Source of the DNA: Candidatus Sericytochromatia bacterium
GTDB taxonomy: Bacteria; Cyanobacteriota; Sericytochromatia; S15B-MN24; UBA4093
Length of the DNA stretch: 64,000 nucleotides
Reading direction: 5' to 3'
NCBI GenBank assembly: GCA_036676985.1
Contig: JAKFBU010000039.1
Location: 128,001 to 192,000, forward strand
Positions 56,353 to 64,000 of this stretch are shown here, piece after piece; position 1 is the stretch's first letter; every line of letters starts with the position of its first letter. The notes under the pieces were generated by a model. That model searched no databases. It saw only the letters and a list, made by a program, of their open reading frames with translations, and was not told the DNA's origin. Position numbers and translations under genes: made by a program.

Positions 56353-56429
56353 CGGGGCGTAGCGCAGCTTGGTAGCGCATCTGCTTTGGGAGCAGAGGGT
56401 CCTGGGTTCGAATCCCAGCGCTCCGACCA
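56353..56429 (+). tRNA. tRNA-Pro(TGG)
   Basis: Full cloverleaf; anticodon arm tctgc-tt TGG ga-gcaga; TTCGAAT; encoded CCA. Confidence 0.97.
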
Positions 56430-56443
56430 TTTACCTAACCCGT

Positions 56444-56518
56444 GCGGGTGTAACTCAGTGGTAGAGTTCCTGCCTTCCAAGCAGGCTGTCGTGGGTTCGA
56501 ATCCCATCGCCCGCTCCA
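56444..56518 (+). tRNA. tRNA-Gly(TCC), intact anchor of the cassette array
   Basis: gcgggtg/cgcccgc acceptor stem, cctgc-ct TCC aa-gcagg, TTCGAAT, T-CCA end. Confidence 0.97.
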
Positions 56519-56523
56519 AACAA

Positions 56524-56560
56524 GAGGCCCTGGCGTGATGCCAGGGCCTCCTTCTTTTCT
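56524..56560 (+). terminator. Terminator after tRNA-Gly
   Basis: gaggccctggc-gtgat-gccagggcctc + cttcttttct. Confidence 0.8.
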
Positions 56561-56570
56561 CCGAGTTGGC

Positions 56571-56618
56571 GGACGGAATGTGAAACGAATGAAACAGATG
56601 AAACAAGGCTTGTTTCAT
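56571..56618 (+). repeat. GGACGGAA + 3x TGAAAC (9-bp period) + inverted GTTTCA element, copy 1
   Basis: TGAAAC at 56581, 56590, 56599; GTTTCA at 56612; same spacing at 58912 and 59711. Confidence 0.8.
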
Positions 56619-56646
56619 GGACAATCAGGCAGGGAATATCCAGAAT

Positions 56647-57204
56647 ATGAGACCAGGACCCGTACTGCTTTCAGTTCTTGCCGTAGCCATCCTAAGTGGG
56701 TGTGGTGTTGTCAGGAATATTGCGGCATCGGCTCCCACGCCTCAAAGCCTTTCCTTTCGAACAGTAGCCCCAACTCCCGGATCTGGCAGCGATGTGCTCG
56801 ACGGGATTCGCGCGTCTGGGCTAGTAGCACGTAGTCAGTCTGAACTGGTTAGAGAGCTTGTAAATCGTAGATACGAGACAGAGCAAGTATCCGATAATCA
56901 AGCCTATGAGGCCTTTCTCAGCAAGTCGATTCCCACGTTAGATTTCTCAACAGAACAGGGCATTCTCGCTACTTTTGGCGCACAAGGTAACACGTGTTAC
57001 CGCGGCGAAATTGTTTCTGTTGAAGAGCGTCAAGATCGAATCGTTGTACACACTGTTCTTTGGGCACCCCGCTACGGGCAAAGCTGCGGAGCGGCGATTG
57101 TCTATCCCTACCACTACGTTGCGATCCCGAAGTCGGCAAAACCAGTCGAATTTCGCGAACCCGTTAGAAAAGAAGTTCCCGGAGCCTGGTGGCAGATCTT
57201 CTGA
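56647..57204 (+). CDS. PrcB C-terminal-domain-like lipoprotein (cassette 1)
   Basis: LSGC lipobox; LDFS..GAQ..Y.G.I..VEE..AIVYPY.YVAIP...P.EF. Confidence 0.7.
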   Translation: MRPGPVLLSVLAVAILSGCGVVRNIAASAPTPQSLSFRTVAPTPGSGSDVLDGIRASGLVARSQSELVRELVNRRYETEQVSDNQAYEAFLSKSIPTLDFSTEQGILATFGAQGNTCYRGEIVSVEERQDRIVVHTVLWAPRYGQSCGAAIVYPYHYVAIPKSAKPVEFREPVRKEVPGAWWQIF

Positions 57205-57221
57205 TAAAGGTTGATTAAACG

Positions 57222-57629
57222 ATGTTCCGCCTAAAGTTCGCCGGGGCGATTGCTGCTGGCGTGCTCGTAACAAGTTGCAGCTTCCCTGCCTCTGGAGTGG
57301 TTGTTGGCACGATCACGCACCTTTCTGTCAAAGGGTATTTCGGGACCAATGTGCCAGTAACCATTCGGGCAAGGGCAACCTTTCCTGGGGCTATCGACCA
57401 TGCGTCTCTAACGACAGACGTTTCAGCTCGATCAGGTAACACGATCCGGGTCATGGCCACAGCCAGTCGAGCCCAACATTTTCTTGGGCTTGGGGTTTTC
57501 CCCGTTGATACATCCAGCCCAAACAATACCGAGATAGAGACGACAGTTAGCGTAAGTAGCCCTGGCGTATACGTAATTGAGGGATTGCAAGATGGAGCGG
57601 TCACGGCTTCCACTTCCTTCAGCATTTGA
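57222..57629 (+). CDS. Hypothetical lipoprotein (cassette 1)
   Basis: AAAGG upstream; VTSC lipobox-like; beta-rich. Confidence 0.6.
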   Translation: MFRLKFAGAIAAGVLVTSCSFPASGVVVGTITHLSVKGYFGTNVPVTIRARATFPGAIDHASLTTDVSARSGNTIRVMATASRAQHFLGLGVFPVDTSSPNNTEIETTVSVSSPGVYVIEGLQDGAVTASTSFSI

Positions 57630-57673
57630 CTTGCCAGCAGTGCGGAAATGGCCTCGCTTTGCTGCGACACACA

Positions 57674-57803
57674 GCGGGTGTGCCACCGATGGTGGCAGCA
57701 AGCAACTCCGTGGTAGAGTTCCTGCCTTCCAAGCAGGCTGTCGTGGGTTCGAATCCCATCGCCCGCTCCAAACACGAGGCCCTGGCTTGATGCCAGGGCC
57801 TCG
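57674..57803 (+). repeat. tRNA-Gly-derived repeat R1 (nt 1-8 + 22-nt insert + nt 9-75) plus hairpin
   Basis: gcgggtgt-[gccaccgatggtggcagcaagc]-aactccgtgg...cgctcca; 66/67 match to tRNA nt 9-75. Confidence 0.92.
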
Positions 57804-57920
57804 AACTATCTCCAGTTCAGTTCTATCGCGCGAAGGCTCCGTACTTCGATTAATGAACAGAAAGCCTTATGGCGGGTAAGAAGAAAATAATCCCTATAGT
57901 CAACTGGAGTTAGAGCTCGT

Positions 57921-58760
57921 ATGGAAATCCGTGATGTCACCATTCCTGGCTTGTCAGGCGCTTTGGTAGACATGGACATAAACAGCACCGGCCGGCTCGC
58001 ATATATATGTAAATCTTTAAACGGCTACTCAGTATTTGTAGATGGCGAGAAGGTAGATATTGGGCAAGGCGTTCCCTATGATATTCGCCTTCTCTCAAAT
58101 GATGAATTCGTCTTGTTTTGCCACCACGGCGAATATATCGATAAATATTATCGACTTGAAAGGTATCAAAAATCCGCTCATTTAGGCTGGCATAGCAATT
58201 GGTCCTGGAGTATTGACCCCCAGTACGAGAATATCACCTGTACGGATCGATGGATTGCCATCGGCTTTTCCGATATGAATAGAAAAGGCGTCTTGGCAAT
58301 TCCTGACCATGGGCACTCCCTGGTTTACTATAATGACATATTCTGGGAAGAAGCAGTCCGCGGCGTCGAGATATACGCAATGTGTAAAGGGCCGCGGAAT
58401 TCAATCTATTTTCATCCCTACACCGATTTTCAACTTGTGCAATGGAATCTTGATACGATGACCCAGGTCGTATGGGTAACACCTGAGGCGGTTCACGGAT
58501 CAAATGCAGTTTCCGTAACGGATGGTACGGCCTACTTTTACTCGCCCTATGATGAAGAACAGTATGAGGGAGATGAATTCAACTGGAAAAACGTTAGAAT
58601 AACTGAGATAAGGGAGCATTCGTTCTATTCCTGGGAGATTGGAAGCTCGGTAGTAAAAAAAGTTGGCGAGTACAAGCTGAACGGGTCCACAATTAGAGGC
58701 CTTCCGGGGGGACGATTCCTTGTTATTCATCGAGACTCGTACTCAATCATCGCGTTTTAA
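57921..58760 (+). CDS. Hypothetical protein, low GC (cassette 2)
   Basis: 279-aa ORF, GGAG upstream; stop codon 3 nt before repeat R2. Confidence 0.75.
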   Translation: MEIRDVTIPGLSGALVDMDINSTGRLAYICKSLNGYSVFVDGEKVDIGQGVPYDIRLLSNDEFVLFCHHGEYIDKYYRLERYQKSAHLGWHSNWSWSIDPQYENITCTDRWIAIGFSDMNRKGVLAIPDHGHSLVYYNDIFWEEAVRGVEIYAMCKGPRNSIYFHPYTDFQLVQWNLDTMTQVVWVTPEAVHGSNAVSVTDGTAYFYSPYDEEQYEGDEFNWKNVRITEIREHSFYSWEIGSSVVKKVGEYKLNGSTIRGLPGGRFLVIHRDSYSIIAF

Positions 58761-58763
58761 GAA

Positions 58764-58892
58764 TTGGGTATGCCACCTCTGGTGGCAGCTAGCAACTCAG
58801 TGGTAGAGTTCCTGCCTTCCAAGCAGGCTGTCGTGGGTTCGAATCCCATCGCCCGCTCCAAATGCAAGCCCCCGAGCCAGTCTCGGGGGCTT
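58764..58892 (+). repeat. tRNA-Gly-derived repeat R2 plus a different hairpin
   Basis: ttgggtat-[gccacctctggtggcagctagc]-aactcagtgg...cgctcca; 67/67 match; aagcccccgag/ctcgggggctt hairpin. Confidence 0.92.
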
Positions 58893-58911
58893 CTTCGTTC
58901 TCCGGGCCAGT

Positions 58912-58959
58912 GGACGGAACGCGATACAAATAAAACAAATGAAACTACTTTTGCTTCAT
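58912..58959 (+). repeat. GGACGGAA/TGAAAC element, copy 2
   Basis: cgatac, taaaac, tgaaac at 9-bp period; gcttca at +41. Confidence 0.7.
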
Positions 58960-59069
58960 CTGCTGTCAGGGGTACGGTTGAGGCGCCGAGGACAAGTACG
59001 GCCTCGTTTGTGACTTACTCTAGATTGGCCGTATGGCCTTATCCAAGGTAAACTTTCTTGGTCCCTCCG

Positions 59070-59501
59070 ATGGCCTTTGACGTGACGCCGCGCCTTGATG
59101 ACAAGGGAATTACTTTGAAAACAGTTCGAGACCCGGCCGACGGGATCCACAGCAGAATACAGAACGGCACGATATATTCCTGGAATGTAAAGGACCTCTG
59201 GGCGTTGGCGGCAAGGCTCCCCGTCTTTCAAATTGACCCACAAGCCGTCATAGATCTGGACAAAGATGGATGGTTCGTTGGCAAAGAGCCAGTACTTCGG
59301 CTGGTGCTAGAGCACGTTCGGCGAATCCAAGACGCCGATCTCTCCTATCCGGTTATTTTGGATGCTGATGGGTCGATAATGGATGGAGCCCATCGTGTGG
59401 CCAAGGCAATCCTTGAAGGACGTCAGACGATTGACGCCGTTCAGTTTCGATATCTTCCTCCTCCATCTCGAACTGCGCTGGTAGCTGGCCAGGACAATTG
59501 A
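59070..59501 (+). CDS. Small ParB/Srx-like domain protein (cassette 3)
   Basis: ADLSYPVIL...G.IMDGAHRVAKA. Confidence 0.7.
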   Translation: MAFDVTPRLDDKGITLKTVRDPADGIHSRIQNGTIYSWNVKDLWALAARLPVFQIDPQAVIDLDKDGWFVGKEPVLRLVLEHVRRIQDADLSYPVILDADGSIMDGAHRVAKAILEGRQTIDAVQFRYLPPPSRTALVAGQDN

Positions 59502-59564
59502 CTTTAGCTTTCGGCTCATCAGTGGCGGAATTCCTGACATAGTAGAAGCATGGTCTGGATGTCA

Positions 59565-59691
59565 GCACGTGTGCCGCGACGGTGCCTGCGAGCACCTCAG
59601 TAGAGTAATTCCAGCCTTCCAAGCAGGCTGCGGTGGGTTCGAATCCCTTCGCCCGTTCCAAACACGAGGCCCTGGCGTTTGCCAGGGCCTC
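59565..59691 (+). repeat. Degenerate tRNA-Gly-derived repeat R3 plus hairpin
   Basis: gcacgtgt-[21-nt insert]-acctcag...cgttcca; about 11 mismatches in 67; gaggccctggc/gccagggcctc. Confidence 0.88.
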
Positions 59692-59710
59692 CCTCTATTC
59701 GCCAAAATGC

Positions 59711-59758
59711 GGACGGAAAATGAAACGAATGTAACAGATGATACGGGGCATGTTTCAT
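59711..59758 (+). repeat. GGACGGAA/TGAAAC element, copy 3
   Basis: tgaaac, tgtaac, tgatac at 9-bp period; gtttca at +41. Confidence 0.78.
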
Positions 59759-59841
59759 GGCTCATGTGATCTATTCTGTTATCAGGCTGCGCGATATTTA
59801 CATCAGTCATATCAAACAATCGCTGAGGGCTCATAAACGCT

Positions 59842-60387
59842 ATGCAAGCAAAACACCTCTTACTCCCGGTGGTCTGCATTTCGCTACTCTCCGGCTGCGG
59901 AATGGTTCGTAATATTGCGGGGGCAAGCCCGCTCGCTCCATCTATCTCTTTCCGGGTTGTATCACCTGCCAGTAGCCACACAGGCCGTTTCAACATTCGT
60001 GCGCAGAACCACGTCTTTAGAACCCAGCAAGAAGTCGATAGCTTCCTCGCTACTGTGCCTGTAACCGCATTCGACGGCAATGGAAACCAGGTTAGTGAAA
60101 CTCTCCCCGCTATCGATTTTTCAAAAGAAGTCGGAATTCTTGTGCTCTTTGGTGCCCAATCCGACGGAGGCTACAGCGGCGATATCTCCGCGATTGAAGA
60201 GAAGCAAGACCGATTGATCGTCCATCCGCTCCTCTGGACTCATAGTAATGAGCCTGGCGTAGGCTACACGATGGCCATCGTTTACCCCTACAAATATGTA
60301 GCAATCCCAATTAGTTCCAAGCCCATCGAGTTTGCTTCCACCGTTGATCGCCCACGCCCCAGTCCCTGGTGGTCGATCTTCTATTAG
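59842..60387 (+). CDS. PrcB C-terminal-domain-like lipoprotein (cassette 4), paralog of 56647-57204
   Basis: LSGCG.VRNIA, IDFSKE, GAQSDGGY, AIVYPYKYVAIP, WW.IF; stop 4 nt before R4. Confidence 0.75.
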   Translation: MQAKHLLLPVVCISLLSGCGMVRNIAGASPLAPSISFRVVSPASSHTGRFNIRAQNHVFRTQQEVDSFLATVPVTAFDGNGNQVSETLPAIDFSKEVGILVLFGAQSDGGYSGDISAIEEKQDRLIVHPLLWTHSNEPGVGYTMAIVYPYKYVAIPISSKPIEFASTVDRPRPSPWWSIFY

Positions 60388-60391
60388 GCTG

Positions 60392-60532
60392 GCGGGTGTG
60401 GCACCTATGGTAGCAGTAAGCAACCCAGTGGTAGCGTTCCTGCCTGCCAAGCAGGCTGTCGTGGGCCGGAATCCCATCGCCCGCTCCATTTCAAAGCCTC
60501 AGCTTGATGCCCAGGCCTCGTGTTTGGAGCGA
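60392..60532 (+). repeat. Degenerate tRNA-Gly-derived repeat R4 plus inverted 3' end
   Basis: gcgggtgt-[ggcacctatggtagcagtaagc]-aacccag...cgctcca; 6 mismatches; then cctcgtgtttggagcg (reverse complement of cgctccaaacacgagg). Confidence 0.88.
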
Positions 60533-60626
60533 ACAACAACCATCGTATAGACGTGTTGACACGAACATAAAATCATCGTAATGTCTACTGTCTCCCAATC
60601 ACGACTATGCAGACAGGGACGTAACG

Positions 60627-60995
60627 ATGCATAAGAAAATGACTGTCCTCGGCCTTTGCTTGACCACCGGCCTCCTGCTGAGCGGTTGCATTTCGACGCA
60701 AAAAATGCAGTTCGACCGTGCATTTGACCCTACCGCCGGAGACAGCCGGAATGTGGAGGTCCTCGACAGTGCCAACGTCAAGCGCTCCTATAAGGTTATC
60801 GGCATCGTTGAGGCGGATGCAGTTGCCGACTACGGATTGAACAACGTACTGTCGGCCTTGAAACTAGAGGCCAAAAAGATGGGCGGACAGGCCGTCATTG
60901 ATGTGCAGCGTGTCCCAATGTACTCCAAAACGTTTTGGGATGGCTTGTTCCCGAGTGGCCAGCGCTGGAGCGGCAAGGTCATTACCTGGGAATAG
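60627..60995 (+). CDS. Small lipoprotein, YbjQ/heavy-metal-binding-like fold (cassette 5)
   Basis: LSGC lipobox; YKVIGIVEA..LKLEAKKMGGQAVI. Confidence 0.7.
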   Translation: MHKKMTVLGLCLTTGLLLSGCISTQKMQFDRAFDPTAGDSRNVEVLDSANVKRSYKVIGIVEADAVADYGLNNVLSALKLEAKKMGGQAVIDVQRVPMYSKTFWDGLFPSGQRWSGKVITWE

Positions 60996-61017
60996 TTCAC
61001 CGATTCCATCGTCCAAG

Positions 61018-61106
61018 CCTGCCTACATAGCAGGCTGTCGTGCGATCTCGCACCAAGCAAGAGGCCCTGGCTTGATGCCGGGGCCTCTTGCTTGGAGCGG
61101 GCGATG
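61018..61106. repeat. tRNA-Gly remnant R5 with long palindrome and inverted tRNA 3' end
   Basis: cctgcctacatagcaggctgtcgtg (anticodon arm remnant); agcaagaggccctggc-ttgat-gccggggcctcttgct; tggagcgggcgatg = reverse complement of the tRNA end. Confidence 0.8.
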
Positions 61107-61248
61107 AGGGAAACAAACTGAGCAGGCTCCCCCTGCACGCTTGAGTAAGCTTTCCACGAAATTAGGGTAACCTGTCTAGTACGTGCTCGCAGCGGGTGGG
61201 TGGACAGCCAGAGACGCGCCCGAGCTCGAGACGTAGAGGAGGGCCACG

Positions 61249-61737
61249 ATGACGAAGTCCAGGATCTGCCTGTGGTATGACCGTGACGCGGAGGAAGCTG
61301 CACGCTTCTACGCCCAAACCTTTCCCGATAGCACGGTCGGCGCGGTGCAGCGAGCGCCCTCGGACTTCCCGAGCGGCAAGGCAGGCGACGTGCTGACGGT
61401 CGAGTTCACGGTCTGTGGGCTGCCTTGCCTGGGCCTCAATGGCGGGGACGCGTTCCCGCAAACCGAAGCGTTCTCCTTTCAAATCGAGACGGAGGACCAG
61501 GCGGAGACCGACCGCTATTGGAACGCGATCGTCGGAAACGGCGGTGAGGAGAGCGCGTGTGGCTGGTGCAAGGACAAATGGGGCGTGTCCTGGCAGATCA
61601 CGCCGCGTATCCTGACGGAGGCGATGGCCCAAGGGGGCGACGTCGCGAAGCGCGCGTTTGAGGCGATGATGGAGATGCAAAAGATCGACGTCGCCAAAAT
61701 CGAGGCGGCGGTGCGCGGCGAGACCGAGTCGAAATAA
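61249..61737 (+). CDS. VOC/PhnB family protein (3-demethylubiquinone-9 3-methyltransferase-like)
   Basis: CLWYD.DAEEAARFY, LNGG, CGWCKDKWGVSWQITP, MMEMQKID. Confidence 0.9.
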   Translation: MTKSRICLWYDRDAEEAARFYAQTFPDSTVGAVQRAPSDFPSGKAGDVLTVEFTVCGLPCLGLNGGDAFPQTEAFSFQIETEDQAETDRYWNAIVGNGGEESACGWCKDKWGVSWQITPRILTEAMAQGGDVAKRAFEAMMEMQKIDVAKIEAAVRGETESK

Positions 61738-62012
61738 ATCACCCGACTCCCGTATCGAAGCCTCGGCCTTGCGCCGGGGCTTCGGTGTTTCTCCGACCAA
61801 ATGTGACCCGTTAAGGCCGTGACTCAAGAAGGCGCGAAGCGATCGGCTCGCTCAAAGGCAAATCGCTCACCGGAAAGTGCTTGTGGAAAGCATCCCATGA
61901 CTGTTGGTAGAAGCACCGTTGAACGAAGAACGCTTGCCTGGCAGCATATCGAAAGGCCTCGTTTGATGTGCCATTTGCTTGGCACGGCGCGATAGCAAGA
62001 GGGAGCGAAGCG

Positions 62013-62711
62013 ATGAATCACAACCTCGGCAGCATCCTGATGATGGGGCTCATCTTCTGTCCACTGGTGCTCACGGGTTGCTTGACCGCGCCTTCGGCCA
62101 CGACGCTGTTTCAGCATGACACCTCACGATCGGCCCCGGACGGCTATCAGGTAGCCGCCATCCGCAGCTTCTCCAAGCACAAGGGCGACTACCTTCCGGC
62201 GCATAACTTCAAACTAGAGATGGATGCGGTCGTGGTCGGCTCGTTCCAGAACGCCCAGGGAGTCCCACGATCGCCTGTCCTTCAAGAGGCTGATTGGCCG
62301 GCAATCGACCTGCGAACCGGTGGGTTCAAAGAGGTCAGCGGACTCGAGGCGGAAGTGGAAGTCATCGAGTACCGGAACGGTGACGATCCCATCACTCACA
62401 AACGCGCCGGTAAGGCCAAGTATAAGAACATCACCCTCAAACGGGGTCAATTCAGCGATCCTTCGGTAGCCGACTGGCTTAAAAAGGTCCTCGCTGGAAC
62501 AACGGACCGTAAAAGTGGCAGCATTATCTACCTCGACCGCGAGGGGAGCGAGATATTACGCTATAACTTCTTCGAGGCATGGCCAGTCCGCTGGAAAATC
62601 GCCAATCGGGACAGTCAAGCCATCGTTGAGATTGAGTTTGCGGTGGAACGAATTGAGCCAGCCGGCAAAGCCCTGCCTGGTGATCCGATTCCCGGAATCG
62701 ATGTTCGTTAG
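62013..62711 (+). CDS. Contractile tail tube protein (T4 gp19/Afp1-like) fused to a lipoprotein signal
   Basis: LTGC lipobox; FKEVSGL..EVIEYRNG, KYKNITLKRG, RKSGSI..LD..G, YNFFEAWPVRW. Confidence 0.8.
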   Translation: MNHNLGSILMMGLIFCPLVLTGCLTAPSATTLFQHDTSRSAPDGYQVAAIRSFSKHKGDYLPAHNFKLEMDAVVVGSFQNAQGVPRSPVLQEADWPAIDLRTGGFKEVSGLEAEVEVIEYRNGDDPITHKRAGKAKYKNITLKRGQFSDPSVADWLKKVLAGTTDRKSGSIIYLDREGSEILRYNFFEAWPVRWKIANRDSQAIVEIEFAVERIEPAGKALPGDPIPGIDVR

Positions 62712-62853
62712 AGCATAACTTAGCGTTCTCAGACGCTCGACCCGATAGAGAAATGGACTTTCCACGGGAATTCCACCCGAAGGCCCGATCGGGCATTTGT
62801 GGCAGCCGTCCTCATTTTGAAGTGGTTCGCGATGCGATGAGCGCTCCACAGAC

Positions 62854-63036
62854 CTACAGCACTGGTCGCCCGAGAACAGTGCCACGGGGCTTGAGCGGAT
62901 TATCTGGCTTGCCAATCTGAATTCCCTGGGTGTTATCCAAAAAAGCAAGCAATAATCCCATGGCCAAGATGGCACTCGCAACTATCAGCAAGCTCTTAAG
63001 AGGGTTGCGAACAAAGAAGTCTGCAAATCGTTTCAT
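62854..63036 (-). CDS. Small membrane protein
   Basis: AGGA upstream; one TM helix. Confidence 0.4.
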   Translation of the reverse strand: MKRFADFFVRNPLKSLLIVASAILAMGLLLAFLDNTQGIQIGKPDNPLKPRGTVLGRPVL

Positions 63037-63123
63037 CACTTTTCCTATTGCACTTCATACGACTCCTGCTACTTGGAGTATTTGAGGCGGCGCGTGCTAC
63101 GGAGTTAATTCTATTAATCGGGG

Positions 63124-63218
63124 TCGGGTGTGTACATCCCCAATGGTGGCAGCAAGCAGGTCGAATCCCATCGCCCGCTCTCCCCCTCGAGGCCCCGACG
63201 TAACGCCGGGGCCTCGAG
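63124..63218 (+). repeat. Internally deleted tRNA-Gly-derived repeat R6 plus hairpin
   Basis: tcgggtgt..atggtggcagcaagc joined to agg-tcgaatcccatcgcccgctc; ctcgaggcccc/ggggcctcgag. Confidence 0.82.
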
Positions 63219-63378
63219 CCTTTGCCACTCCAACGAAAAACGGGGGGAAATATTTCTCGCCGATTGACCTAGGACGGTCACGGTCAACCAGCTATCACAA
63301 GACCAAAGACCCGCTCCTGTCCCCCGATTGGCCGCCCGGCGCAAACTTGGATCCCGGGCGAGAAAGGGGATACTCCCC

Positions 63379-64000
63379 ATGGCGACCGAACCAATCAAAT
63401 TGACGCCCGGCAGGCTCACCGCCACGATTCTCTACCTCCTGGCCTACCCCTTCTTGATCTTGGGCCTGGGAGGCGACAGGAAATGGGCCGAGGGCTGGAT
63501 CTTCAGCACCTGGTTCGTGACGTTCTGCATCGCGACCATCGTCTACCTCTACTTCAACGATCCCGCCCTGCTCGCCGAGCGTTACCGCCGGCCGGGAAAA
63601 GACAGTGGCGAACAGACGTGGGACCGGTACTTCATCTATGCCATCGGCATCTTCTTCATGGCTTGGTTCGTCGTGATGCCGCTGGATGCCCGGAGATTCG
63701 ACTGGTCCCCGGATTTCCCCCTCTGGCTCGTCTTGACCGGAGCCCTGTTGCTGGCAGGAGCGACCTACTTCATGTTTCGCGCCTATTCGGACAACACGTA
63801 TCTGTCCCCTCTGGTCAGGATCCAGGCCGAACGTCAGCAGCGAGTGGTTTCAACGGGGGTCTACGGCTTCGTGCGGCACCCCATGTACCTGGGAGCCATT
63901 TGCCTGATGCTGGGGGCCCCCCTGTTTCTGTCGTCACTCGGCGGCCTCGCGATCGGCGTGCTCATGGTCGCCCTATTGATCGCTCGTATCGTCGGTGAAG
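63379..64000 (+). CDS. Isoprenylcysteine carboxylmethyltransferase (ICMT/Ste14) family membrane protein, 3' truncated
   Basis: MATEPIKL..DPALLAER..NTYLSPLVRIQ..VVSTGVYGFVRHPMYLG; not in ORF track. Confidence 0.88.
   Translation, partial: MATEPIKLTPGRLTATILYLLAYPFLILGLGGDRKWAEGWIFSTWFVTFCIATIVYLYFNDPALLAERYRRPGKDSGEQTWDRYFIYAIGIFFMAWFVVMPLDARRFDWSPDFPLWLVLTGALLLAGATYFMFRAYSDNTYLSPLVRIQAERQQRVVSTGVYGFVRHPMYLGAICLMLGAPLFLSSLGGLAIGVLMVALLIARIVGE

What the first reader, a model, noticed from the sequence alone, without database searches (positions are those of the whole stretch)
56444..64000. Integron-like gene-cassette array built on tRNA-Gly-derived repeats
Seen: after the intact tRNA-Gly(TCC), six tRNA-derived repeats (57674, 58764, 59565, 60392, 61018, 63124) delimit segments of about 1.15, 1.0, 0.7, 0.7, 0.5 and 2.0 kb plus a seventh running off the window. 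Each segment has 1-3 lower-GC genes, nearly all co-oriented. Two genes stop 3-4 nt before the next repeat, as integron ORFs abut attC. No integrase, transposase or attC is visible. Established: islands integrating at tRNAs normally duplicate only a 3' fragment and usually carry their own integrase over many kb. Here almost the whole tRNA recurs around gene-sized cargo. Inference: a possibly undescribed capture system in which a trans-acting recombinase inserts minimal circles at tRNA-Gly, restoring the tRNA and pushing older cassettes downstream.
Basis: partly seen in the sequence, partly recalled or inferred. Interest (0 to 1): 0.92.

Follow-up and report, generated by a model that had tools for sequence, protein, structure and literature searches.

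The report
Stacked mini-islands behind a tRNA-Gly gene
Behind one glycine tRNA gene of a soil bacterium lie six small blocks of foreign genes, each ending in a decaying copy of that tRNA, which is best read as the stacked scars of repeated insertions of small mobile elements at one spot, a known way of building genomic islands.

Summary
After the single-copy tRNA-Gly(TCC) (56444-56518) there are six tRNA-Gly-derived repeats, at 57674, 58764, 59565, 60392, 61018 and 63124. They bound six low-GC segments of 0.5-2 kb whose eight main genes are co-oriented. There is no recombinase in the array. There is no seventh segment: the array ends at 63180.

New details: five repeats carry tRNA nt 1-8, then a 23-nt palindromic insert, then nt 9-76. 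Three segments start with a terminator plus a 'GAAAC box' (three TGAAAC at 9-nt spacing plus one inverted copy).

In related genomes the same box lies about 100-125 nt from the anticodon loop of tRNA-Gly, tRNA-Val and tRNA-Thr. It occurs there in elements that carry a tyrosine integrase (HTH_17 + Phage_integrase), either intact or as a fragment. One such element has inverted boxes on its other arm.

In the window, repeat cores are far better conserved than their arms, and they decay with distance from the tRNA.

Best reading (about 0.65): serial site-specific integration at tRNA-Gly, with newcomers pushing older units downstream. This gives an accretion array of integrase-less units, like CIMEs or tycheposon islands. 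A working, trans-mobilised cassette system that resembles an integron is not excluded (about 0.2). It is supported only by the compact units and by weak contig joints.

The parts
56353..56429 (+). tRNA-Pro(TGG), upstream neighbour in the same tRNA cluster. This pair is syntenic in G004 and G007.
56444..56518 (+). Intact, single-copy tRNA-Gly(TCC). It is the integration target (attL core).
56524..56630 (+). P' arm of the youngest unit: terminator hairpin 56524-56550 and GAAAC box 56563-56630 (TGAAAC at 56581, 56590, 56599; inverted GTTTCA at 56612).
56617..57629 (+). Segment 1 cargo: a PrcB_C-like lipoprotein (56617/56647-57204) and a 135-aa putative lipoprotein (57222-57629).
57674..57802 (+). 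R1: P arm 57674-57704 (tRNA nt 1-8 plus the 23-nt palindromic insert), core 57705-57770 (66/67 identical; the one change is at D-loop position A14), terminator 57776-57802.
57921..58760 (+). Segment 2 cargo: a 279-aa protein with no family. Its stop codon lies 3 nt before R2.
58764..58972 (+). R2: P arm 58764-58794, core 58795-58860 (67/67), a distinct terminator 58866-58892, and a degenerate GAAAC box 58903-58972.
59058..59501 (+). Segment 3 cargo: a 147-aa protein matching phrog_17560 (function unknown).
59565..59766 (+). R3: decayed P arm and core (57/66), a terminator, and GAAAC box 59704-59766.
59842..60387 (+). Segment 4 cargo: a PrcB_C-like lipoprotein, 43% identical to the one in segment 1. 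Its stop codon lies 4 nt before R4.
60392..60531 (+). R4: P arm and core (61/67), followed by an extended palindrome whose right arm (60502-60531) is an inverted copy of the tRNA 3' end plus terminator.
   Evidence: (D12, I3, I4, I10)
60627..60995 (+). Segment 5 cargo: a 122-aa putative lipoprotein.
61018..61106 (+). R5: only tRNA nt 26-55 (25/30), then a terminator palindrome extended by an inverted tRNA 3' end (61077-61106).
   Evidence: (D3, I1, I9)
61249..62711 (+). Segment 6 cargo: a 3-dmu-9_3-mt family protein (61249-61737) and a tail-tube (T4 gp19 / CIS tube)-like protein with a signal-like N-terminus (61968-62711).
63124..63216 (+). R6: P arm with insert joined directly to tRNA nt 54-73 (20/20), then the terminator 63187-63216, taken to be the original chromosomal one. 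This is the end of the array.
   Evidence: (D6, D8, I6)

Best explanation
The locus is an accretion array: a small genomic island built by at least six successive site-specific integrations of related small integrative elements into the single tRNA-Gly(TCC) gene.

Mechanism:
- Each incoming circle carried an attP made of three parts: a short P arm (tRNA nt 1-8 plus a 23-nt palindrome), a core identical to the tRNA from nt 9 or from the anticodon stem to the 3' end, and a P' arm (terminator, often followed by a GAAAC box).
- Recombination within the core rebuilt a working tRNA on the left. It left a hybrid junction (P arm of the newcomer, core, P' arm of the previous unit) on the right, so older units moved downstream.
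- The recombinase is inferred to be a tyrosine integrase of the HTH_17 + Phage_integrase type found in relatives. The TGAAAC repeats are inferred to be its arm-type binding sites.
- None of the six units now holds an integrase, and no cognate integrase is seen in this genome. The units are therefore integrase-less derivatives or satellites (CIME-like), and the older junctions are decaying as neutral scars.

Shown: the repeats, their gradient of decay, conserved cores beside diverged arms, foreign composition, and the shared arm motif in integrase-bearing relatives.

Inferred: the crossover position, the role of the GAAAC box, and whether each unit arrived without an integrase or lost it.
For: 1. 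Seven tRNA-Gly cores in direct orientation, of which only the first is intact.
2. Decay with distance from the tRNA: 66/67, 67/67, 57/66, 61/67, then two fragments. R1's single change hits the D-loop position A14 (the universal conservation of A14 is recalled). Only R1 still folds as a cloverleaf, and no copy folds better than shuffles (z -1.4 to +0.4).
3. R1 against R2: core 65/66, P arm 25/31, following P' arm 26/48. This fits diverged elements sharing one core, and does not fit a local duplication.
4. GC is 0.47-0.61 in the array against 0.673 for the genome.
5. The GAAAC box was found in 5 of 27 genomes of the order, all in the window's family. Of the 10 places listed, 7 lie just after a tRNA gene or tRNA fragment, 2 lie inside the G007 tRNA-Gly island, and 1 has no tRNA in its 10-kb locus. 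The two-unit motif gave 32 matches against 1 for the reversed control in 10 genomes.
6. G007 has an element of about 12 kb at tRNA-Thr(CGT). It carries the box on its P' side, two inverted boxes on its P side, an intact HTH_17 + Phage_integrase gene and a Hachiman defence system. The hamB gene is split over two contig ends, which links the element's two halves.
7. G007 at tRNA-Val(GAC): a 47-nt, 100% identical tRNA repeat bounds a 4.17-kb unit. Each copy is followed by a terminator and a box that are about 80% identical. The unit holds an integrase N-terminal fragment 56% identical to the intact integrase.
8. The G007 tRNA-Gly(TCC) island is 17.5 kb. It has four boxes and a terminal tRNA fragment starting near nt 18, and a cargo stop codon lies about 12 nt before that fragment.
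9. G000 itself holds a 6.7-kb element at tRNA-SeC with a 60-bp perfect repeat and an integrase of the same architecture.
10. The array is not an assembly artefact. A 1682-nt contig from a run of another study is identical over window 59406-61087, across R3, R4 and R5.
Against: - No integrase or remnant was found in any of the six units.
- No GAAAC-type site occurs elsewhere in this genome. The nearest integrase to the G007 one is only 31% identical and sits at tRNA-SeC.
- No integrase-bearing element at tRNA-Gly(TCC) was found in the 10 family genomes.
- The P arm with its palindromic insert was found nowhere else: 0 convincing matches in the 46 other genomes of the class, 1 chance hit in metagenome contigs, and 0 in viral contigs. 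The claim that these are copies of a mobile family therefore rests on this one locus.
- Homology among the five P arms starts at the same base (tRNA nt 1). In segments 2 and 4 full-length genes end 3-4 nt before it. Independent random deletions of integrase genes would not be expected to give this.
- Only 3 of the 6 units have a box.
- The role of the box as an arm site is inferred from position only.
Confidence: 0.65

Rival explanations
1. A working gene-capture platform. The units are minimal, integrase-less cassettes (P' arm, one or two genes, 31-nt P arm plus tRNA core). A recombinase encoded elsewhere, or brought by a visiting element, excises them as circles and inserts them at tRNA-Gly. 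This works like an integron but is built on a tRNA.
For: - The units are compact. Segment 4 is 733 nt: box, conserved leader, one full-length gene, then the P arm 4 nt after the stop. Segment 2's gene is full length (its G008 relative has a 278-aa frame) and stops 3 nt before R2.
- All five P arms start at the same base.
- 8 of 8 main genes are co-oriented.
- No integrase remnant is present.
- Contigs of run X4 (another study) show a joint from window 56624, just after box 1, to 57673, one base before R1. It skips exactly the segment 1 cargo, with what lies between unknown. Other joints link terminators of R1 or R2 type to a box-1-like sequence.
Against: - No cognate recombinase was found in the genome.
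- The P arm was seen in no other genome or contig searched.
- The older junctions decay without any sign of selection.
- Relatives of the arm motif sit in ordinary integrase-bearing elements.
- The X4 joints come from short contigs at 90% likeness over repeats and may stem from related strains or from alignment choices.
Confidence: 0.2
2. Local evolution without site-specific recombination. One pseudo-tRNA with the insert was duplicated in tandem. The copies then served as portable homology for RecA-dependent gain, loss and replacement of the DNA between them, with gene conversion from the real tRNA keeping the young cores intact.
For: - All P-arm copies lie in one locus of one genome.
- The P' terminators resemble the chromosomal terminator after R6 (28-35 of 47-53 positions).
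- The palindromes at R4 and R5 show that template-switch or conversion events have acted here.
- Two units carry paralogous lipoproteins, 43% identical.
Against: - Four of the six units hold unrelated genes.
- The arms of R1 and R2 differ by 19% and 46% beside a 98% identical core. That would need conversion tracts ending exactly at the core.
- The same box and terminator architecture recurs at three different tRNA genes in other genera, with integrase genes present.
Confidence: 0.1
3. Assembly artefact of a metagenome-assembled genome: repeats chained wrongly, or a chimeric contig.
For: The genome has 79 contigs and an estimated 5.09% contamination. Repeats of 67-107 nt can mislead short-read assemblers.
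Against: - A 1682-nt contig from a run of a different study is identical over R3, segment 4, R4, segment 5 and R5. Other contigs from four runs are identical or nearly so over single segments.
- The left flank with tRNA-Pro and tRNA-Gly is syntenic with G004 and G007 at 71-72% identity.
Confidence: 0.03

Closest known systems
Tandem accretion of integrative elements and cis-mobilizable elements (CIMEs), described for ICESt1-related elements of Streptococcus thermophilus. Seen as passages and the reference list of review PMC5704250. The primary papers (Pavlovic 2004, Bellanger 2011) were not read.
   Same: - Site-specific integration into the 3' part of a tRNA or other target gene.
- Decay to units that have lost their integration genes but keep attL and attR.
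- A new element integrates at an att site of the resident one, giving tandem arrays.
   Different: - Here there are six units in a row, each only 0.5-2 kb.
- No unit has an integrase and no cognate integrase was seen in the genome.
- The repeat covers nearly the whole tRNA and carries a 23-nt palindromic insert.
- No conjugation genes are involved.
Tycheposon-built genomic islands next to tRNA genes in Prochlorococcus. Seen as passages of preprint 10.1101/2020.12.28.424599; supplements not seen.
   Same: [quoted passage not shown]
- This is read as successive integrations in which newcomers push older elements into the island.
- Fragmented integrases and partial tRNAs occur as remnants.
- The host belongs to the same phylum in the wide sense.
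   Different: - Membership was not tested: the integrase clades and replication modules of tycheposons were not compared.
- Here the repeats are near full-length tRNA copies.
- The units are much smaller than the elements described there.
- A GAAAC box arm motif is present.
Integrons (IntI, attI, attC cassettes). The defining features are recalled from general knowledge.
   Same: - Small, co-oriented units of one or two genes, stacked at one site, each ending in a repeat.
- The newest unit lies nearest the insertion point.
- Genes abut the repeat.
   Different: - No intI next to the array.
- The repeats are tRNA-derived, not attC.
- The insertion point is a functional tRNA gene that is rebuilt each time.
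- Several units have their own terminator.
Lambda-type attP with arm-type integrase sites (P1, P2 and P'1-P'3). Recalled from general knowledge.
   Same: - Three tandem direct repeats on the P' side, about 100-125 bp from the presumed crossover.
- Inverted copies on the P side in the one complete element seen (G007, tRNA-Thr).
   Different: - The repeat unit is a hexamer at 9-bp spacing.
- The integrase N-terminus is an HTH_17 domain.
- Binding has not been shown.
- The window's units have no P-side boxes.

Membership tests
Integron | An intI tyrosine recombinase gene adjacent to the array | tested here: not met
   The eight cargo ORFs have no PF00589 match. The five PF00589 places in the genome are all on other contigs. 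tblastn with integrases on 56400-63400 gave a best E of 0.68.
Integron | Cassettes end in attC sites (imperfect palindromes with R''/L''-L'/R' boxes) | not testable with these tools
   No attC model or IntegronFinder is at hand. The repeats are demonstrably tRNA-Gly copies, so they are not attC by origin.
Integron | Co-oriented, mostly promoterless single-gene cassettes | tested here: inconclusive
   8 of 8 main ORFs are on the + strand. Promoter-like matches number 6 against 4.4 expected, so nothing can be said about promoters.
Accretion array of tRNA-targeting integrative elements (CIME-like units) | An intact target gene at one end, and direct repeats of its att core bounding every unit | tested here: met
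Accretion array of tRNA-targeting integrative elements (CIME-like units) | Core conserved while the arms of different units diverge | tested here: met
   R1 against R2: core 65/66, P arm 25/31, P' arm 26/48.
Accretion array of tRNA-targeting integrative elements (CIME-like units) | Units lack integration genes but keep both att sites | tested here: met
   no integrase or resolvase; arms present at R1-R4 and R6.
Accretion array of tRNA-targeting integrative elements (CIME-like units) | Related elements with an integrase use the same kind of site | tested here: met
   G007 tRNA-Thr element with an intact integrase and boxes on both arms. G007 tRNA-Val tandem with an integrase fragment. No integrase-bearing element was found at tRNA-Gly(TCC) itself.
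Accretion array of tRNA-targeting integrative elements (CIME-like units) | Excision or integration observed | tested here: inconclusive
   Only contigs could be laid. Joints in run X4 hint at variants but cannot show circles.
Tycheposons | A tyrosine recombinase of the tycheposon clades with the associated replication or packaging modules | not tested
   No tycheposon sequences were compared. Only the island-building logic is shared.
Lambda-type attP arm sites (GAAAC box) | Repeated motif at a fixed distance from the core, on both arms, bound by the integrase N-terminal domain | tested here: inconclusive
   The position is conserved at three tRNA targets, about 100-125 nt from the anticodon loop. 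Inverted copies on the P side occur in 1 element and in 0 of the 5 window P arms. Binding is not testable here.

The most novel reading that the evidence does not exclude
The six units are complete, minimal mobile cassettes. Each has a P' arm (terminator with or without a GAAAC box), one or two genes packed to within 3-4 nt of a 31-nt P arm (tRNA nt 1-8 plus a palindrome that may bind an accessory protein), and a tRNA core. An HTH_17-type integrase supplied in trans shuffles them at tRNA-Gly. This would be a tRNA-based analogue of the integron in a non-photosynthetic sister lineage of the cyanobacteria.
Probability: 0.18. Interest if true: 0.8.

Novelty: new variant of a known kind. Interest (0 to 1): 0.42.

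Why it matters
The locus is an unusually clean fossil record of island building at a tRNA gene: six dated layers, each with both arms preserved, in Sericytochromatia, a lineage whose mobile elements are hardly described. A full-text search for Sericytochromatia, integrase and tRNA found one paper, and it is not about this.

The work also defines a candidate arm-site motif, the GAAAC box, for a family of HTH_17 integrases that target tRNA-Gly, tRNA-Val and tRNA-Thr. One of these elements carries a Hachiman defence system.

If the compact integrase-less units prove to be mobilised in trans, the locus would show that cassette-style gene capture can evolve on a tRNA target without integron machinery. 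If not, it is an ordinary, if tidy, accretion island.

Tried and rejected
A second call sent in the same turn returned a format error. No earlier findings were used.
Counts of contigs per cargo protein could therefore not be made.
- Supplements of the tycheposon preprint, which list its tandem examples, were not seen and may bear on how small integrase-less units get there.

**RNA and read evidence**
- No RNA holder was listed among the 17 runs.
- Parts of the stretch without contig cover in runs X5, X7 and X8 are not used as evidence.

**Searches for the P arm and the box elsewhere**
- P-arm junction pattern in metagenome contigs: one hit, inside a GC-rich coding region with no tRNA, so a chance match.
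- The same pattern in viral contigs: 0 hits.
- In the 46 other genomes of the class: only matches with 2-3 mismatches in GC-rich DNA, against 2 control matches.
- GAAAC-box pattern across one genome per species: 18 loci. Only two (L017, L024) are the family's own. The others, and the 3 viral loci, have no tRNA or related integrase nearby.

**Features considered and dropped**
- A seventh, very decayed repeat at 61740-61800: rejected. The local alignment to the unit is only a 9-nt match, reached by 49 of 1000 shuffles and by 100 of 1223 windows outside the array.
- P-side GAAAC boxes in the window: only single GTTTCA hexamers, at 57420, 59987, 62108 and 63030.
- Reading the box as a small peptide: the variable positions fall on second codon positions and two copies carry stops. 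This was judged by eye, so it was rejected.
- Rfam sub-threshold matches (YrlA 34 bits against a threshold of 69, BjrC68, rli61 and snoRNAs) are artefacts of adjacent tRNAs and terminators.
- R1 and R2 as working tRNA genes with an intron-like insert: ARAGORN does not call them. R1 is mutated at A14. Folds are no better than shuffles.

**Other checks**
- Two tRNA-Thr(CGT) copies in G000 turned out to be overlapping contig ends, not an island.
- Cargo function: PADLOC gave no hit in 8 of 8 proteins. The segment 2 protein matched 2 of 47 class genomes: G000 itself and one weak relative in G008. The segment 4 lipoprotein has only 2 relatives (51-52% identical) among 5.8 billion proteins with that query.
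- ARAGORN run on the multi-FASTA genome without the linear option missed tRNAs (one search gave 46, one search gave 57). Counts are not used. One search's tRNA result was repeated properly.

Full report
**Where the window lies.** The window is G000:C39:128001-192000, in a 4.68-Mb genome of 79 contigs with 67.3% GC. Named records returned by a pattern scan place the family in Candidatus Sericytochromatia. Their sequence equals loci of one family member (compare).

**The observation.** ARAGORN finds tRNA-Pro(TGG) at 56353-56429 and tRNA-Gly(TCC) at 56444-56518. With the linear option, tRNA-Gly(TCC) is single-copy in the genome. Downstream there are six further tRNA-Gly-derived copies, at 57674, 58764, 59565, 60392, 61018 and 63124.
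- Identity to tRNA nt 9-75 is 66/67, 67/67, 57/66 and 61/67 for R1-R4.
- R5 keeps only nt 26-55 (25/30) and R6 only nt 54-73 (20/20).
- Rfam's tRNA model scores R1 and R2 above threshold over positions 9-63.
- No copy occurs after 63180 on the contig or elsewhere in the genome.
- GC climbs back to 0.63-0.71 about 1 kb past the window.
- The gene running off the window has 66-70% identical counterparts in other genomes.

The array therefore has six segments, not seven. A suspected seventh scar at 61740-61800 is not supported.

**Anatomy of a junction.** R1-R4 and R6 begin with the tRNA's first eight bases. A 23-nt insert follows whose centre is a 7-bp palindrome with a 3-nt spacer, and then comes tRNA nt 9 onward.
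- Homology among these five P arms starts at the same base, and nothing upstream aligns.
- Each core is followed by a terminator hairpin.
- After the tRNA itself, after R2 (degenerate) and after R3 there is a roughly 60-nt 'GAAAC box': TGAAAC three times at 9-nt spacing, then an inverted copy 7 nt on.
- R4 and R5 are followed by palindromes whose right arms are inverted copies of the tRNA 3' end (I1, I3, I9). I read these as template-switch extensions of the terminator stems.

**Cargo.** Eight main ORFs, all on the + strand, fill the segments:
- two PrcB_C-like lipoproteins, in segments 1 and 4, 43% identical to each other
- two further putative lipoproteins
- a 279-aa orphan
- a 147-aa protein matching phrog_17560
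- a 3-dmu-9_3-mt family protein
- a tail-tube-like protein

None matches a defence model. No integrase, resolvase or transposase family is present, and tblastn with relatives' integrases finds nothing. The stops of the segment 2 and segment 4 genes lie 3 and 4 nt before R2 and R4. Both genes look full length by comparison with relatives.

**Relatives.** The tRNA-Pro and tRNA-Gly pair and its left flank are syntenic in G004 and G007, a different genus of the same family, at 71-72% identity. Both have low-GC DNA after the tRNA, with a GAAAC box right after the terminator.
- The full box pattern occurs in 5 of 27 genomes of the order, all in the family.
- Of its 10 places, 7 follow a tRNA gene or fragment: tRNA-Gly(TCC) in G000, G004 and G007; a tRNA-Gly fragment in G004:C70; tRNA-Thr(CGT) in G002 and G005; and a tRNA-Thr 5' half in G007:C30.
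- A further 2 lie inside the G007 tRNA-Gly island, and 1 has no tRNA nearby.
- The two-unit motif gives 32 matches against 1 for the reversed control.

**Link to integrases.** In G007, tRNA-Thr nt 1-37 with about 150 nt of upstream DNA is duplicated.
- One copy (C30) is followed about 100 nt later by a box. The other (C28) is preceded by two inverted boxes and continues as the intact tRNA.
- Between them lie an XRE regulator, a resolvase, a PolA-like gene, an HTH_17 + Phage_integrase gene, and hamA-hamB. The hamB gene is split across the two contig ends (model positions 4-115 and 218-738), which joins the halves into one element of about 12 kb.
- At G007's tRNA-Val(GAC), a 47-nt perfect repeat of the tRNA 3' part bounds a 4.17-kb unit. 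Each copy is followed by a terminator and a box at about 80% identity. The unit holds a 108-aa integrase N-terminal fragment, 56% identical to the intact integrase.
- G007's tRNA-Gly(TCC) island is 17.5 kb and ends in a tRNA fragment starting near nt 18. A cargo stop lies about 12 nt before it, and there is no P-side box.

From this I infer that the box is the arm-type site of this integrase family. It sits about 100-125 nt from the anticodon loop at three different tRNA targets.

**This genome's recombinases.** G000 has five PF00589 places:
- two on C61 and C4 that I take to be Xer-like (my label; no call tested it)
- a fragment beside a tRNA-Met
- one on C41
- one on C62

The C62 integrase has HTH_17 + Phage_integrase and is 31% identical to the G007 one. 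It lies in a 6.7-kb element bounded by a 60-bp perfect repeat of tRNA-SeC. There are two resolvase places, on C41 and C61. No GAAAC-type array exists outside the window locus. No cognate integrase for the array is therefore visible.

**Why serial integration is the best reading.**
- The cores decay with distance from the tRNA.
- For the two youngest junctions the core is 65/66 identical, while the P arms are 25/31 and the following P' arms 26/48. Diverged elements sharing a core give this pattern. A local duplication would age all parts alike.
- The process is in print: accretion and CIMEs (passages of PMC5704250), and tandem tycheposons separated by partial tRNAs, with newcomers pushing older ones into the island (passages of 10.1101/2020.12.28.424599).

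**What stays odd.**
- The P arm with its palindrome was found nowhere else.
- The repeat reaches the tRNA's first base, and the units are extremely compact with intact genes abutting the P arm.
- Random loss of integrase genes six times over would not be expected to leave such tidy ends. The units may therefore have been integrase-less satellites when they arrived.
- Contigs of run X4, from another study, hint at variants. One joint runs from just after box 1 (window 56624) to one base before R1 (57673), and others join terminators of R1 or R2 type to a box-1-like sequence. These are short contigs over repeats at 90% likeness, with unknown letters between.
- The same call shows a 1682-nt contig identical across R3 to R5, which rules out an assembly artefact for that part.

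**Verdict.** The locus is an accretion island at tRNA-Gly built from small integrase-less units of a lineage-specific family of tRNA-targeting elements. That makes it a new variant of a known kind. The integron-like reading remains possible but unproven.

Noticed in passing
G007:C28 (L042 8515-17937) and G007:C30 (L040 3500-6147): An integrative element of about 12 kb at tRNA-Thr(CGT) that duplicates the tRNA's 5' half plus about 150 nt upstream. It carries a Hachiman defence system (hamA, with hamB split over two contig ends), a PolA-like gene, a resolvase, an XRE regulator and an HTH_17 + Phage_integrase gene.
   Followed up: partly
G000:C62:9445-16171 (outside the window): A 6.7-kb low-GC element bounded by a 60-bp perfect direct repeat of the 5' part of tRNA-SeC, with an HTH_17 + Phage_integrase gene next to the tRNA.
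   Followed up: partly
window 60482-60531 and 61049-61106: The terminator hairpins after R4 and R5 are extended into long palindromes. Their right arms are inverted copies of the tRNA 3' end, as if copied by intrastrand template switching.
   Followed up: no
G004:C70 (L013 6137-6294): A solitary tRNA-Gly 3' fragment (from the anticodon stem) with terminator and GAAAC box. It resembles G007's tRNA-Gly locus more than G004's own. It sits in a normal-GC intergenic region directly after an efflux-pump-like gene, with no island beside it.
   Followed up: partly
G005:C136 (L038 3450-3700), G002:C1 (L039 4230-4481), G005:C31 (L014 6400-6480): In this genus the GAAAC box is followed at once by its own terminator hairpin. 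It therefore looks like a short transcription unit or a bare att arm. Two copies lie about 95 nt after tRNA-Thr(CGT) and one lies away from any tRNA.
   Followed up: no
L047 9100-9230 (IMG/VR contig) and L020 6380-6450 (Acidobacteriota MAG): Unrelated contigs carry similar clusters of ATGAAAC units at 9-nt spacing next to inverted GTTTCA copies, with no tRNA or related integrase within the fetched stretch. The motif may be a wider protein-binding array.
   Followed up: partly
window 61249-61737: The 3-dmu-9_3-mt family gene inside the array is single-copy in this genome. It is 80-88% identical at DNA level to genes in five genomes of the order, where it lies in other contexts. That is well above the roughly 70% seen for flanking orthologues. 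The homology is limited to the gene.
   Followed up: partly
window 61968-62711: A tail-tube (T4 gp19 / contractile-injection-system tube)-like domain fused to a signal or lipoprotein-like N-terminus, standing alone without other tail genes.
   Followed up: no
window 59761-59841 and G007:C22 (L011 3540-3625): A conserved non-coding leader between the GAAAC box and the PrcB_C-like lipoprotein gene, shared between genera although the reading frames across it differ.
   Followed up: no
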